From positions 1 to 21,792 of the forward strand of contig NW_021825442.1 in assembly GCF_006345805.1 (NCBI RefSeq): DNA of 21,792 nt. The letters run 5' to 3'. Made by a program: the position numbers. Below, one piece after another: positions 14,653-20,600 of this stretch. Within the stretch, counting starts at the first letter, position 1. Each line of letters begins with the position of its first letter. The DNA comes from Octopus sinensis (lineage: Eukaryota).

Positions 14653-17600
14653 ATATATTACACGAGGGCTTCTTCCAATTTCTCTCTACCAAATCCACCA
14701 GAGGGCCTTAGTCAGCCCGAATCTATAGTAGAAGACACTTGCCGAAGTTTCCAGGCAGTGGGAATGAACCCGCAACTATGTGGTTGTAAAGCAAGGTACT
14801 TACCACACAGCCACGTCTTGGACACGTTAATTTCTTGAGTAGAAAATTCACTTGTTTAGATACTCGTCGTCACTTCTGACGGAAGAGCCACGCAGTTGTT
14901 CGCAGTGAGTTTTATCACATCTATCGCTTACAAACCTGTAATATGGTGTTTGTTCGCTGTGATATTAATACCTAGCTCTCAAGTGAATGTCACGTGATAT
15001 AGCCCTCTGCTATGTATTTCATTTCCAAAATACAAGAATGAAATGTCATCATAACTATCGTAACATAATCTTAATTTTATTTTCATTTATTTTTATTGTT
15101 TAGTTTTACGTAAATGCCCGACCGCTTACAAATAATCAACCGACTGAGCCGAAATATTCGTAACTAAGCAAGTGATCTTGTGGACGCGTTCACTTCGGTT
15201 CTAGGTTCCGAAAGCAATGACTCCAGGATAGTTTAATATTCTTAATTATTGCGCGTGCGTGTGTTCTAATCTATATATATTTTTTTTATTGCCCACAAGG
15301 GGCTAAACACAAAGAGGACAAACAAGGACAGACAAATTGGTTAAGTCGATTACATCGACCCCAGTACGTAACTGGTACTTATTAAATCGACCCCGAAAGG
15401 ATGAAAGTCAAAGTCAACCTCGGCGGAATTTGAACTCAGAACATAATGGCAGACGAAATACCTATTTCTTTACTACCTACAAGGGGCTAAACACAGAGGG
15501 GACAAACAAGGACAGACAAACGGATTAAGTTGATTACATCGACCCCAGTGCGTAACTATTACTTACTTTATCGACCCCGAGAGGATGAAAGGCAAAGTCG
15601 ACCTCAGCTGAACGAAATACCGCTAGGCATTTCGCCCGGCGTGCTAACGATTCTGCCACCTCTATATTTTTATGTTCACTGAAATACATCGAATGGCTAT
15701 GGAGATCTAATAGAGTAAAAGAAGAATCGAAGGGGTCCGTAGGCAAAAATTGGTTGAGAACCACTGGTCTAGCTTATCCACGAGACCGTTTGCTGCCATT
15801 CAGTTCTGTTGAGTCATCTTCACTTTGAGTTTTGTATACATACATACATACATACATACATACATACATACATACATACATACATACATACATACATACA
15901 TACATACATACATACATGGTGGTCATCTCATCTACTCTTTATGCAGAGTCTGAGTACCTCTTGTACTTACACCTTAGATCCATCATGGCGTCTGATGTGG
16001 CTTTTTAAACTAGACAATGTTTTGAAAAGACACCCACATAGTTTGCATATCCGATTTGGGCCACCCAGAGCTGCAGTTAAGTTCTGATCTTTGTGAATCT
16101 TAAAATGTCTTTTGAGGCCTCCATTAGATTTGCAACCCGTATGGCATACACAGCATTGAAAGGTGTGCATAGACATATTAGCAGGATAGTTGATGGAGTT
16201 TCGTTTGTCATAGGTACGCAAATGGGATTTGAGCCCAGCAAAAAAGAAAGGCATGGTCTGTCACAAACAGTCCACACAAAAAGGTCATTGTGATTCATGT
16301 TCTTGATCGTAAATTCTTTTTTAAATCTCTTTTGAGTCTTGCATGTGTTATCCTAGCCTCTTCAAATGCTTCCACTCCACTCCTCACTTTTGTTCACCAT
16401 CCATCTCAATCTGAAGCAAGGGTTTCTATGTCCTCTGGATTCATTCCAAGTGACTTCATGGTAGTCCTTATGCCATCCTTAAACCTCTTTTTAGGTTTAC
16501 ACCGATTGCGTTTCTCCTCTGGAAGCTCGCCATAAAACAGCTGTTTCGGTGTTTCCCTCATTTTGTACAGCTGTTTCGGTGTTTCCCTCATTTTGTACAG
16601 CTGTTTCGGTGTTTCCCTCATTTTGTACAGCTGTTTCGGTGTTTCCCTCATTTTGTACAGCTGTTTCGGTGTTTCCCTCATTTTGTACAGCTGTTTCGGT
16701 GTTTCCCTCATTTTGTACAGCTGTTTCGGTGTTTCCCTCATTTTGTACAGCTGTTTCGGTGTTTCCCTCATTTTGTAGCTGTTTCGGTGTTTCATCATTT
16801 TGTACAGCTGTTTCGGTGTTTCCCTCAATTGTACAGCTGTTTCGGTGTTTCCCTCATTTGTACAGCTGTTTCGGTGTTCCCTCATTTGTACAGCTGTTTC
16901 GGTGTTTCCTCATTTGGTACAGCTGTTTCGGTGTTTCTCATTTTGTACAGCTGTTCGGTGTTTCCCTCAATTTGTACAGCTGTTTCGGTGTTTCCCTCAT
17001 TTTGTACAGCTGTTTCGGTGTTTCCCTCATTTGTACAGCTGTTTCGGTGTTTCCCTCATTTTGTACAGCTGTTTCGGGTTTCCCTCATTTGTACAGCTGT
17101 TTCGGTGTTTCCCTCATTTTGTACAGCTGTTTCGGTGTTTCCCTCATTTTGTACAGCTGTTTCGGTGTTTCCCTCATTTTGTACAGCTGTTTCGGTGGTT
17201 CCCTCATTTTGTACAGCTGTTTCGGTGTTTCCCTCATTTTGTACAGCTGTTTCGGTGTTTCCCTCATTTTGTACAGCTGTTTCGGTGTTTCCCTCATTTT
17301 GTACAGCTGTTTCGGTGGTTCCCTCATTTTTGTACAGCTGTTTCGGTGTTTCCCATTTTGTACAGCTGTTTTGGTGTTTCCCTCATTTTGTACAGCTGTT
17401 TCGGTGTTTCCCTCATTTTGTACAGCTGTTTCGGTGTTTCCCTCATTTTGTACAGCTGTTTCGGTTTTCCCTCATTTTGTACAGCTGGTTCGGTGTTTCC
17501 TCATTTTGTACAGCTGTTTCGGTGTTTCCCTCATTTTGTACAGCTGTTTCGGTGTTTCCCTCATTTTGTACAGCTGTTTCGGTGTTTCCCTCATTTTGTA

Positions 17601-20600
17601 CAGCTGTTTCGGTGTTTCCCTCATTTTGTACAGCTGTTTCGGTGTTTCCCTCATTTTGTACAGCTGTTTCGGTGTTTCCCTCATTTTGTACAGCTGTTTC
17701 GGTGTTTCCCTCATTTTGTACAGCTGTTTCGGTGTTTCCCTCATTTTGTACAGCTGTTTCGGTGTTTCCCTCATTTTGTACAGCTGTTTCGGTGTTTCCC
17801 TCATTTTGTACAGCTGTTTCGGTGTTTCCCTCATTTTGTACAGCTGTTTCGGTGTTTCCCTCATTTTGTACAGCTGTTTCGGTGTTTCCCTCATTTTGTA
17901 CAGCTGTTTCGGGTTTCCATCATTTTGTACAGCTGTTTCGGTGTGTGTTTCCTCTTTGTACAGCTGTTTCGGTGTTTCCCTCATTTTGTACAGCTGTTTC
18001 GGTGTTTCCCTCATTTTGTACAGCTGTTTCGGTGTTTCCTCATTTTGTACAGCTGTTTCGGTGTTCCCTCATTTTGGTACAGCTGTTTCGGTGTTTCCCT
18101 CATTTTGTACAGAGGTTCGGTGTTTCCCTCATTGTACAGCGGTTTCGGTGTTTCCCTCATTTTGTACAGTGTTTCGGTGTTTCCCTCATTTTGTACAGCT
18201 GTTTCGGTGTTTCCCTCATTTTGTACAGCTGTTTCGGTGTTTCCCTCATTTTGTACAGCTGTTTCGGTGTTTCCCTCATTTGTACAGCTGTTTCGGTGTT
18301 TCCCTCATTTTGTACAGCTGTTTCGGTGGTTCCCTCATTTTGTACAGCTGTTTCGGTGTTTCCCTCATTTTGTACAGCTGTTTCGGTGTTTCCCTCATTT
18401 TGTACAGCTGTTTCGGTGTGTTTCCTCATTTTGTACAGCTGTTTCGGTGTTTCCCTCATTTTGTACAGCTGTTTCGGTGTTTCCCTCATTTTGTACAGCT
18501 GTTTCGGTGTTTCCCTCATTTTGTACAGCTGTTTCGGTGTTTCCTCATTTTGTACAAGCTGTTTCGGTGTTTCCCTCATTTTGTACAGCTGTCGTGTTTC
18601 CCTCATTTTGTACAGCTGTTTCGGTGTTTCCCTCATTTTGTACAGCTGTTTCGGTGTTTCCCTCATTTTGTACAGCTGTTCGGTGTTTCCCTCATTTTGT
18701 ACAGCTGTTTCGGTGTTTCCCTCATTGTACAGCTGTTTCGGTGTTTCCCTCATTTTGTACAGCGTTTCGGTGTTTCCCTCATTTTGTACAGCTGTTTCGG
18801 TGTTTCCTCATTTTGTACAGCTGTTTCGGTGTTTCCCTCATTTTGTACAGCTGTTCGGTGTTTCCCTCATTTTGTACAGCTGTTTCGGTGTTCCCTCATT
18901 TTGTACAGCTGTTTCGGTGTTCCCTCATTTTGTACAGCTGTTCGGTGTTTCCTCATTTTGTACAGAGCTTCCAGGGTAGATGGAAGAATCAACAAACTTA
19001 ACAAAAATTTTAGCGGGGTTGCAAACAGCACCATGTGCAAGTTGAAACATTACGACTGTTTTTTTTTTTTTTTTTTCAATTTGATGTTCAAGCCATCATC
19101 AAAAGCTGAGTCAAATGCAGATACAAGAGATTTCAGGCTCGTTTCAGAGTGACTGACTAGATCACAATCGTTAGGGTATAAGAGTTCCCTAATTAGTGAA
19201 GTAAAAACCTTTGTTTTGAATTTCAGTCTGGTCAGATTAAAAACATTCCCTGTTGTTCGATATTTTATGTAAATACCCTCCTCGGAGTTTTGGAAAGTGT
19301 GTGACAGCACAACAGCAAAATATATTGCAAAGAGGATGGGTCTCCTTGCTTTAATCTATTTTCCACGGCAAAATATTCAGAGAGCCTACCACCAAAATTA
19401 ATTCTAGCTTTCATATGATGCAAAGCCCTGATCTAGTTTACAATTTTTTCTAGGCAACCTAGTTTCCTTAGAATTAGCCACAGAGCATTTCAATTAACAG
19501 TATTGAAAGCTTTGCTCAAATCAACAAAGTAATAGTATAGGGCAAGATGTGTTCAAATTCCGCCGAGGTCAACTTTGCCTTTCATCCTTTCGGGGTCGAT
19601 AAATTAAGCACCAGTTACGCACTGGGGTCGATGTAATCGACTTAATACCTATGTCTGTCCTTGTTTGTCCCCTCTATGTTTAGCTCCTTGTGGGTAATAA
19701 AGAAATAGGTATAGGGCAAGATTCTGTTCAATGCACTTTTCTTGTAATTGTCTGATAGTATAGATACAATCAACTGTAAAAACCACGTTGAAACTCAGAC
19801 ACCATATTTAGAACTATAAAGGTATTTAAACGTTTTAACAGAATGCGGGCAAGTACCTTTCCAACCACAGACAAAAGCAAAATTCCACGAAAATTGCCAC
19901 ACAGATCCTATGGCCCCGATTTATACAAGGAGACTAAAATGGCATCAATCCAGTCTTGAGGTACTTTCTCAGTTCTCCAGCAGTGACAAATTACTATATT
20001 TAAGAGTTCAAACATTTTGTCACTTTCATATTTCAAGTCCTCTGCACAGATTTCATCAGATCCTGGAGACTTATTGTTATTCAGCTTATTCACAGCTATA
20101 ATAAATGTCATTTAGAGTTGGTTCAAATGCTATCTCTTCTATAACTGGAAGATGTTCGATTTTTTCATGTCAGCGGATGATGGTCTATTAAAAAATGCAA
20201 AAAAAAAAATGATCTACCCAGCGCTTATGAATAGAAGCGATGTCAGTCAAAAGCAAATGTTCATCTGCTGTTCTCAGTGGAGCTATTGAAGAAGATTTGG
20301 GGCCATATACCTCCTTAACATAAGAGTACAAACCCTTGGCAACATTTCTATCAGCTGCTTCTTGTGCCCCTTTTGCTCTATCATTCCACTACTCCTGTTT
20401 AATCTTCCTGAGAGTAATCTGCACTTTCCTTTTCAGCTTTCTGTAAGCTTCATTTGAGTTGGGGTTCAAAGATTAAGAAAGAAGTGTATGGCCTAAGTTT
20501 TGTTTTTCTAAAAGTAGATCATGAATTTCTGCTGATTTGTCTGTGAACCAATCACTGGGCCTACGCGATTTAAAATTCATCGACGAGCTTGCAGCCTGAA

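What the first reader, a model, noticed from the sequence alone, without database searches (positions are those of the whole stretch)
16535..18975. A 2.4-kb minisatellite born at a deletion junction inside a LINE
In RTE sense the array is entered from ...IYPGSSVQNEG (the YLGS region after the RT core) and exited into ETPKQLFYGEL. In intact RTE ORF2 these motifs are roughly 120 codons apart (general knowledge, not measured here). The 30-mer CTGTACAAAATGAGGGAAACACCGAAACAG is chimeric: the first part comes from the upstream side and the second from the downstream side of the deletion. It is bounded by CTGT microhomologies (gctCTGTac and cagCTGTtt), and the downstream one lies in a perfect 12-bp palindrome, AAACAGCTGTTT (16535-16546). 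A junction-spanning unit was thus amplified about 81 times, by RT or repair-polymerase reiteration, a rolling circle, or later slippage. Five of six frames stay open, and each unit has an E-box (CAGCTG).
Basis: partly seen in the sequence, partly recalled or inferred. Interest (0 to 1): 0.7.

Follow-up and report, generated by a model that had tools for sequence, protein, structure and literature searches.

The report
Minisatellite inside a dead LINE copy
A 30-base unit repeated about 82 times fills the spot where a decayed retrotransposon copy has lost part of its gene; this is an ordinary way for tandem repeats to arise, and whether the unit spans the deletion joint could not be tested.

Summary
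The array is real: 16537-18965, period 30, 82.1 copies, 95% matches. It lies in a 5'-truncated, decayed LINE on the minus strand. The reverse-transcriptase codons run down to a YPGS (YLGS-type) motif at the right edge of the array. The C-terminal part (FYGEL..., two C2H2 fingers, an (ATAC)n tail) starts at the left edge. From recalled LINE architecture, about 120 codons are missing where the array sits; this was not measured.

The CTGT microhomology, the 12-bp palindrome and the E-box in each unit are all present. "Five of six frames open" holds only for the consensus unit: the actual LINE-sense frames carry 20, 38 and 23 stops.

The central claim, that the unit joins sequence from both sides of the deletion, could not be tested, because no other copy of this LINE family was reachable. 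An equally good rival is that the unit is native sequence just upstream of FYGEL.

The units differ by 0.6% in substitutions, while the LINE flanks are roughly 12% decayed. The expansion is therefore recent and happened at the DNA level, not by reverse-transcriptase stuttering. Most unit variants are single-base losses in homopolymers, which may be long-read consensus errors. This is a TE-derived minisatellite of low interest.

The parts
16537..18965 (-). 30-bp minisatellite, about 82 units. Each unit carries the 8-bp palindrome ACAGCTGT, which includes the E-box CAGCTG.
   Evidence: TRF, score 4400. (44 of 80 intervals equal the consensus). (42 deleted bases, 7 inserted bases and 15 substitutions against 81 consensus units). 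(ACAGCTGT 75 times, CAGCTG 76 times).
18966..19538 (-). LINE reverse transcriptase, second half, ending in ...FVDSSIYPGSS (YLGS-type motif) at the array edge. It contains LLYPNDCDL (a decayed YADD-type box), in-frame stops and frameshifts.
   Evidence: translations. (RVT_1 profile 68-128, E 4.2e-05, at about 19325-19540; below Pfam's cut-off). The motif names are recalled.
19549..19712 (+). SINE-like insertion in the LINE RT, flanked by the 10-bp target duplication AGGGCAAGAT (19539-19548 and 19713-19722).
   Evidence: 86-92% identical copies at 11353-11831, 15271-15612 and 1808-1902. (alignment of 5 copies). (sequence).
19723..20811 (-). LINE linker and first half of the RT (...KSPGSDEI..., ...FRGILLLSVVGKVLARIL...). 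The element is 5'-truncated near 20811-20870 and has no endonuclease domain upstream.
   Evidence: (RVT_1 profile 5-46, E 6e-04 and 1.3e-03, sub-threshold but collinear with the other hit). (no domain in 20800-21400).
15967..16536 (-). LINE C-terminal segment: (ETPKQ)LFYGELPEEKRNRCKPKKRFKD..., then 3 in-frame stops, a frameshift, and two C2H2 zinc fingers.
   Evidence: translation. (zf-C2H2 E 1.9e-06, zf-C2H2_4 E 1.8e-06, both above cut-off)..
15836..15917 (-). (ATAC)20.5 microsatellite, 100% identical, about 50 bp after the last LINE stop. It is the probable 3' tail of the LINE.
   Evidence: The position relative to the ORF that ends at 15967 comes. The RTE-clade tail description comes from a passage of PMC1291365.
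16535..16546 (.). 12-bp perfect palindrome AAACAGCTGTTT at the left array boundary. It is the unit's 8-bp palindrome extended by flank bases.
   Evidence: read directly.
16519..16528 (.). Left arm (CTGGAAGCTC) of an inverted repeat that brackets the array.
Evidence: The repeat is 9 bp strictly outside the TRF bounds and 10 bp with G18965. Shuffles give P(>=9)=0.0024 and P(>=10)=0.00045. In-window control: 11 of 2021 position pairs reach >=9.
18965..18974 (.). Right arm (GAGCTTCCAG) of the same inverted repeat.
19059..19076 (-). A18 run in LINE sense (a lysine run), at a frameshift within the RT.

Best explanation
This is a non-functional, LINE-derived minisatellite in a dead, 5'-truncated non-LTR retrotransposon copy on the minus strand.

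Shown:
- The array replaces the stretch between the YLGS-type end of the RT palm and the FYGEL segment.
- Its units are built from LINE coding sequence that runs straight into LINE codons at both edges.
- The proto-unit was bounded by a CTGT direct repeat.
- The units are far more alike than the decay of the host LINE would allow.

Inferred:
- A break or replication error in the already inserted element was repaired by microhomology-guided joining. That repair lost about 0.36 kb and left or created a 30-bp tandem duplication between the two CTGT repeats (the Haber-Louis type of minisatellite birth).
- Replication slippage and unequal sister-chromatid exchange then raised the copy number to about 82 and kept the units alike. 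The 8-bp palindrome, which lets neighbouring units pair as a hairpin, may have helped.

For: - The array is real and sharply bounded.
- The LINE is identified by two collinear RVT_1 matches (profile 5-46 and 68-128), C-terminal C2H2 fingers and a tetramer tail.
- LINE codons abut both array edges.
- There is a 4-base remainder beyond whole units, which is the CTGT direct repeat.
- I counted 11 in-frame stops and at least 5 frameshifts in about 747 LINE codons by eye along the best frame path. That implies roughly 12% per-site decay (6-21%). The array shows 15 substitutions in 2395 bases, or 0.6%.
- Neighbouring units fold as ssDNA into an 8-bp stem: -6.4 and -6.7 kcal/mol, z -2.3 and -1.9, with 6 and 9 of 200 shuffles folding as well.
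- The Haber-Louis model is quoted in passages of PMC6947457.
- Internal LINE deletions with microhomology are described in PMC2861651, abstract and passages.
- Templated and 'patchwork' insertions at deletion junctions are described in PMC8654963, abstract and passages.
Against: - The size of the missing segment, and even its existence, rest on recalled LINE architecture and not on an aligned consensus.
- CTGT is only 4 bp, shorter than the 5-10 bp quoted for the model.
- The hairpin is weak.
- Array variants are dominated by single-base homopolymer losses: 31 of 42 deleted bases lie in runs of 3 or more, p=6e-05. The five SINE copies in the same window differ mainly by substitutions: 9-27 substitutions against 2-5 gap events in each of 10 pairs. 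The assembled array may therefore be an error-laden long-read consensus, so its exact length and variants are unverified.
- No reads, other haplotypes or other copies of the family were available.
Confidence: 0.7

Rival explanations
1. Array first, deletion second. The whole 30-mer is native LINE sequence just upstream of FYGEL (read LYKMRETPKQ in that frame). It expanded in place. A later break in the fragile array was then joined to the upstream AGCT/CTGT microhomology at the YLGS codons, deleting the thumb region. On this view the unit is not chimeric.
For: - In the downstream frame the unit reads ...KMRETPKQ|LFYGEL without interruption.
- A basic residue plus M a few residues before PK...YGEL fits a recalled LINE pattern.
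- The upstream junction has overlapping microhomologies, AGCT(CT)GT against AGCTGT.
- A deletion endpoint exactly at an array edge is expected if the array was the site that broke.
Against: - In the upstream frame the unit continues YPGSS with VQNEG (consensus unit). That fits the recalled pattern of a hydrophobic residue, two residues, an acidic residue and G after YLGS. On this rival that fit must be chance, roughly 1% by my estimate.
- The KM alignment needs a two-residue gap.
Confidence: 0.4
2. The whole unit is native sequence downstream of YLGS (read VQNEGNTETA), and the deletion joint lies at the FYGEL edge of the array.
For: In the upstream frame the unit fits the recalled post-YLGS pattern at the hydrophobic, acidic and G positions, and again at a hydrophobic position ten residues later.
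Against: PK at the correct register before LFYGEL, and the KM before it, would then both be chance readings of another frame. I estimate this at well under 1%.
Confidence: 0.05
3. The deletion and the array were both made during retrotransposition, by template jumping and reiterative copying by the LINE reverse transcriptase.
For: - A 9-10-bp inverted repeat brackets the array. In the RNA it could close a stem around the lost segment.
- LINE RTs are known to jump templates (recalled).
Against: - Units differ by 0.6% in substitutions while the flanks are about 12% decayed. An array made at insertion should be as decayed as its flanks unless it was continuously homogenised.
- 82 reiterations in one reverse transcription has no precedent that I know of.
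Confidence: 0.07
4. Assembly artefact. The array length, or the join of the two LINE pieces across it, was produced by mis-assembly of noisy long reads.
For: - Inserted or deleted bases outnumber substitutions 49 to 15.
- Deletions outnumber insertions 42 to 7.
- 31 of 42 deleted bases lie in homopolymers.
- This pattern is not seen among the SINE copies nearby.
Against: - Both flanks are collinear parts of one LINE in one orientation.
- The same T>G variant recurs at one unit position in 3 units, two of them 4 units apart.
- Other tandem arrays in the window are 100% clean.
Confidence: 0.1
5. A functional element: either a repeat-protein exon on the + strand or a cluster of 76 E-boxes acting as a regulatory array.
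For: - Two + strand frames have no stop over 809 codons and the third has one.
- CAGCTG occurs 76 times in 2.4 kb.
Against: - The openness follows from a unit of 30 bases with a stop triplet in only one frame.
- Frequent indels shuffle the three peptide registers.
- Pfam finds nothing in any of the 3 + strand ORFs.
- The E-box is simply part of the unit's palindrome.
- There are no expression or binding data.
Confidence: 0.02

Closest known systems
TE-derived minisatellites born by slippage between short direct repeats (Haber and Louis model, as reviewed in PMC6947457; passages read)
   Same: - A short motif inside a transposable element, flanked by a short direct repeat, is duplicated and then expanded.
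- The unit is 30 bp and there are fewer than 100 copies.
- The array sits within a retroelement.
   Different: - The examples listed in that review derive from Alu, B1, MaLR and LTR elements, not from a LINE coding region.
- The direct repeat here is 4 bp, against the 5-10 bp quoted.
- This array coincides with an internal gap in the element.
Internal microhomology-associated deletions in non-LTR retrotransposons (Hebe of Adineta vaga, PMC2861651; abstract and passages read)
   Same: A LINE copy is inactivated by an internal deletion inside its ORF, with microhomology at the boundary.
   Different: - Hebe deletions are 12-200 bp and carry no array at the joint.
- Hebe's own tandem repeat (72 bp, 1-4 copies) lies in the 3' UTR.
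- The deletion boundary here could not be mapped to a consensus.
Polymerase-theta end joining with templated or 'patchwork' insertions at deletion junctions (PMC8654963; abstract and passages read)
   Same: One repair event can give a deletion plus repeated copies of flank sequence at the joint. That is what a junction-born unit would need.
   Different: - Those insertions are short and few.
- No case of growth to about 80 copies is described in the passages I read.
- The pathway is inferred here, not shown.
Satellites and tandem repeats derived from retrotransposon parts (PMC7004042, PMC3648361 and PMC8392823; search listings and abstract starts only)
   Same: Part of a retroelement becomes the monomer of a tandem array.
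   Different: Those repeats are mostly longer monomers from LTR elements or CR1 fragments and are often genome-wide families. Here a single locus with a 30-bp unit is seen, and its spread in the genome is unknown.

Membership tests
Minisatellite / VNTR | Head-to-tail array of a unit longer than about 10 bp, with up to about 100 units (definition as given in PMC6947457) | tested here: met
   Period 30, 82.1 copies, 95% matches.
Minisatellite / VNTR | Copy number varies among individuals or haplotypes | not testable with these tools
   No reads, haplotypes or other genomes were available.
TE-derived minisatellite of the Haber-Louis type | The unit is continuous with transposable-element sequence at the array edges | tested here: met
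   LINE codons run into the first and last units on both sides.
TE-derived minisatellite of the Haber-Louis type | A short direct repeat (5-10 bp in the quoted model) flanks the proto-unit | tested here: inconclusive
   There are 4 perfect bases (CTGT), or an imperfect AGCT(CT)GT against AGCTGT. This is shorter than the range quoted.
Junction-born (chimeric) repeat unit | The two halves of the unit map to sites far apart in the intact element | not testable with these tools
   No second family copy was found in the window, in genome contigs or in PDB.
RTE clade of non-LTR retrotransposons | Very short 3' UTR made of AT-rich tri-, tetra- or pentamer repeats (PMC1291365, passage) | tested here: met
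   (ATAC)20.5 lies at 15836-15917, about 50 bp after the last ORF stop at 15967. From recall, other LINE clades also end in short repeats, so this feature is not exclusive.
RTE clade of non-LTR retrotransposons | One long ORF with an AP endonuclease domain and an RT domain (PMC1291365, passage) | tested here: inconclusive
   The RT is present as two sub-threshold, collinear RVT_1 matches. The endonuclease is absent because the copy is 5'-truncated. Two C-terminal C2H2 fingers are present, which I do not recall as an RTE trait.
RTE clade of non-LTR retrotransposons | The RT groups with RTE elements in a phylogeny | not testable with these tools
Satellite with higher-order repeat structure | Variants recur at a fixed multiple of the unit | tested here: not met
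   TRF reports only period 30 for this array. The only hint is one T>G variant in units 4 apart, at 17181 and 17301.

The most novel reading that the evidence does not exclude
One microhomology-guided repair event of the polymerase-theta type removed about 0.36 kb of the LINE and, in the same event, wrote the first junction-spanning duplicates. The break was possibly triggered by the 12-bp palindrome and the inverted repeat that brackets the site. On this reading the 2.4-kb array is a grown-up templated insertion, a rare caught-in-the-act case that links repair scars to minisatellite birth.
Probability: 0.25. Interest if true: 0.4.

Novelty: new member of a known kind. Interest (0 to 1): 0.2.

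Why it matters
If the unit truly spans a deletion joint, the locus would be a tidy natural example of a repair scar seeding a long tandem array, which would help in thinking about how minisatellites start. Otherwise it is one more TE-derived VNTR. It could still serve as a polymorphic marker, and it is a warning spot for assembly and polishing errors.

Tried and rejected
- **Second LINE copy in the window.** blastn of both flanks against the window found only SINE and microsatellite matches.
- **Relatives in genome contigs.** One search used 53 residues: 204 stretches matched a peptide pattern and 0 were confirmed by tblastn. One search used a degenerate pattern back-translated from the window's YGEL...KKRFKD peptide and gave 0 matches. 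That collection holds bacteria and archaea only, so these blanks say little.
- **PDB sequence search with the RT core.** 0 hits at E up to 1.
- **ESM Atlas with the C-terminal piece.** The best three of 30 hits are unnamed 'hypothetical protein' clusters at 0.96 (two recorded as eukaryotic, one with no taxa). No sequences were returned and the recognition value (1916) is below the tool's 2300 mark, so this was unusable for mapping.
- **Rfam and ARAGORN on the window.** 0 and 0.
- **Full-text searches for sequence strings.** Four 20-mers from the unit and the SINE were found in 0 papers. Six short peptide strings were found in 3 papers, of which 2 were listed; both are unrelated.
- **Decayed units beyond the array edges.** Not significant.
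- **Coding reading of the + strand.** No Pfam family in any of the 3 ORFs.
- **LINE pieces.** They were searched piece by piece, with X at stops.
- **Organism.** Not determined.
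Full report
**Observation.** The array exists as described. Tandem Repeats Finder gives 16537-18965, period 30, 82.1 copies, 95% matches, 3% indels and score 4400. That is the highest of 54 rows in the window; the next is 784. Splitting at GTAC gives 80 intervals. Of these, 44 equal the consensus. 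Their lengths are 30 (49 intervals), 29 (18), 28 (6), 31 (4), 27 (2) and one double unit of 57. The edges are sharp: neither 100-bp flank aligns to the unit better than shuffles do (185 of 1000 for the left flank, 389 of 1000 for the right). The window has no N.

**Host element.** The array lies in a LINE on the minus strand.
- LINE-like codons run from about 20811 down to 18966. This stretch includes two Pfam RVT_1 matches that are below the curated cut-off but collinear: profile 5-46 near 19773-19916 and profile 68-128 near 19325-19540.
- It also holds a decayed YADD-type box and ends in ...FVDSSIYPGSS at the array edge.
- On the other side the frame reads (ETPKQ)LFYGELPEEKRNRCKPKKRFKD... 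It then passes three stops and a frameshift into two C2H2 fingers (zf-C2H2 E 1.9e-06).
- About 50 bp later there is a perfect (ATAC)20.5 tract at 15836-15917.
- No endonuclease domain lies upstream, so the copy is 5'-truncated.
- A SINE-like element sits in the RT at 19549-19712 with a 10-bp target duplication.
- I searched the LINE pieces one by one, with X at stops. I built no joined or repaired ORF.

**The gap.** In LINEs of this general build, the thumb and following segment lie between the YLGS motif and the ...PK..L.YGEL segment. I recall this as about 115-135 residues. Here nothing but the array lies between them. The deletion is therefore inferred from established architecture and is not measured. 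The RTE label is likewise untested. The short AT-rich tetramer tail fits the clade's description (PMC1291365, passage), but the endonuclease is missing, there is no RT phylogeny, and I do not recall C-terminal C2H2 fingers as an RTE trait.

**Side claims.**
- The tract is a whole number of units plus 4 bases. This is the CTGT direct repeat around the proto-unit.
- The upstream junction also shows AGCT(CT)GT against AGCTGT in the unit.
- The 12-bp palindrome is at 16535-16546. It is the unit's own 8-bp palindrome ACAGCTGT (75 copies in the array) lengthened by flank bases.
- CAGCTG occurs 76 times in the array and 4 times elsewhere.
- "Five of six frames open" holds for the consensus unit only. 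The real + strand frames have 0, 0 and 1 stops, and the LINE-sense frames have 20, 38 and 23.
- The literal entry peptide is ...YPGSSVQNEETPN, because the first unit lacks two bases.

**Is the unit chimeric?** This is the heart of the finding, and it could not be tested.
- No other family copy is in the window.
- PDB gave nothing, and the Atlas returned unnamed clusters without sequences.

What remains is motif logic from recalled patterns.
- In the upstream frame the consensus unit reads VQNEGNTETA. This continues YPGSS in the way many LINEs continue YLGS: a hydrophobic residue, two residues, an acidic residue, then G.
- In the downstream frame it reads LYKMRETPKQ. This gives PK in the right register before LFYGEL, and a basic residue plus M a little further up.
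- PK argues strongly that the 3' part of the unit is native to the downstream side.
- The V codon is covered by the CTGT microhomology and so does not discriminate between the readings.
- The contest is therefore between "acidic-G by chance" (unit wholly downstream-native) and "KM by chance" (unit chimeric). I estimate each at about 1%.
- I put the chimeric reading at about 45%, the downstream-native reading at about 40%, the upstream-native reading at about 5%, and leave the rest to other origins.

**Age and mechanism.** Along the best frame path I counted by eye 11 in-frame stops and at least 5 frameshifts in about 747 LINE codons. Since 23 of 549 single-base changes of sense codons make stops, this implies roughly 12% per-site decay (6-21%). 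CpG decay would lower that figure somewhat. The array shows 15 substitutions in 2395 bases, or 0.6%. The units therefore share a far more recent ancestor than the death of the LINE. This favours expansion or homogenisation at the DNA level (slippage, unequal sister exchange) over an array written once by the reverse transcriptase. As single-stranded DNA, neighbouring units pair through the palindrome into an 8-bp stem (-6.4 and -6.7 kcal/mol; z -2.3 and -1.9). That is a weak but plausible aid to slipped structures. The birth step fits the Haber-Louis model quoted in PMC6947457. Internal LINE deletions with microhomology are documented for Hebe (PMC2861651). Repeated templated insertions at deletion joints are documented for polymerase-theta joining (PMC8654963). 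I found no evidence for a rolling circle.

**Quality caveat.** Against 81 consensus units the array has 42 deleted bases, 7 inserted bases and 15 substitutions. Of the 42 deleted bases, 31 lie in runs of three or more, which occupy 13 of the 30 unit positions (p=6e-05). Five SINE copies in the same window differ mainly by substitutions: 9-27 substitutions against 2-5 gap events in each of 10 pairs. Other arrays in the window are 100% clean. The excess is therefore specific to this array and looks like unpolished long-read consensus, although true homopolymer slippage cannot be excluded. One T>G variant recurs at the same unit position in 3 units, two of them 4 units apart. Some of the variation is therefore probably real. 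TRF reports no higher-order period.

**An unplanned observation.** A 9-10-bp inverted repeat brackets the array (16519-16528 and 18965-18974). Shuffles give P(>=9)=0.0024 and P(>=10)=0.00045. In the window control, 11 of 2021 position pairs reach 9 or more. The arms are the (L/P)GS and ELP codons of the two LINE motifs.

**Verdict.** This is a real, LINE-derived minisatellite at an internal gap of a dead LINE copy. It is a new member of a known kind. The junction-born reading is possible but unproven, and interest is low.

Noticed in passing
window 20886-20981: A second tandem array, ATCTCGTATCAGAA x6.9 at 100% identity. It lies just beyond the point where LINE-like codons stop (about 20811-20870), which is the 5' truncation of the same LINE copy. 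No protein domain was found in 20800-21400.
   Followed up: partly
window 11328-11810, 15271-15612, 1808-1902, 19549-19712: A SINE-like element of about 165-185 bp occurs as 2.6 tandem copies (period 185), as two tandem copies on the minus strand, as a fragment, and as a single insertion in the LINE with the 10-bp target duplication AGGGCAAGAT. ARAGORN and Rfam recognise nothing. The tandem arrangement at two loci is unexplained.
   Followed up: partly
window 16519-16528 and 18965-18974: A 9-10-bp inverted repeat brackets the 30-bp array. It is rare in shuffles (P 0.0005-0.002) and in the window control (11 of 2021 position pairs).
   Followed up: partly
window 19059-19076: An 18-base T run (A18 in LINE sense, a lysine run) lies at a frameshift inside the reverse transcriptase. 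It is probably an expanded homopolymer.
   Followed up: no
window 17181-17331 and 18312-18341: The same T>G change at one unit position occurs in three units. Two of them are exactly four units apart, each preceded by three consensus units. This is a hint of a 120-bp duplication inside the array.
   Followed up: partly
window 21430-21792: An (ACT)n/(ACC)n triplet low-complexity tract with long open frames that run off the end of the window.
   Followed up: no
window 2953-3275, 8271-9111, 9438-9697, 11094-13189: The window is dense in long microsatellites: (TA)n up to 177 copies, (TCTC)n, and several (TTA)n/(TAT)n tracts. Overall G+C is 38%.
   Followed up: no
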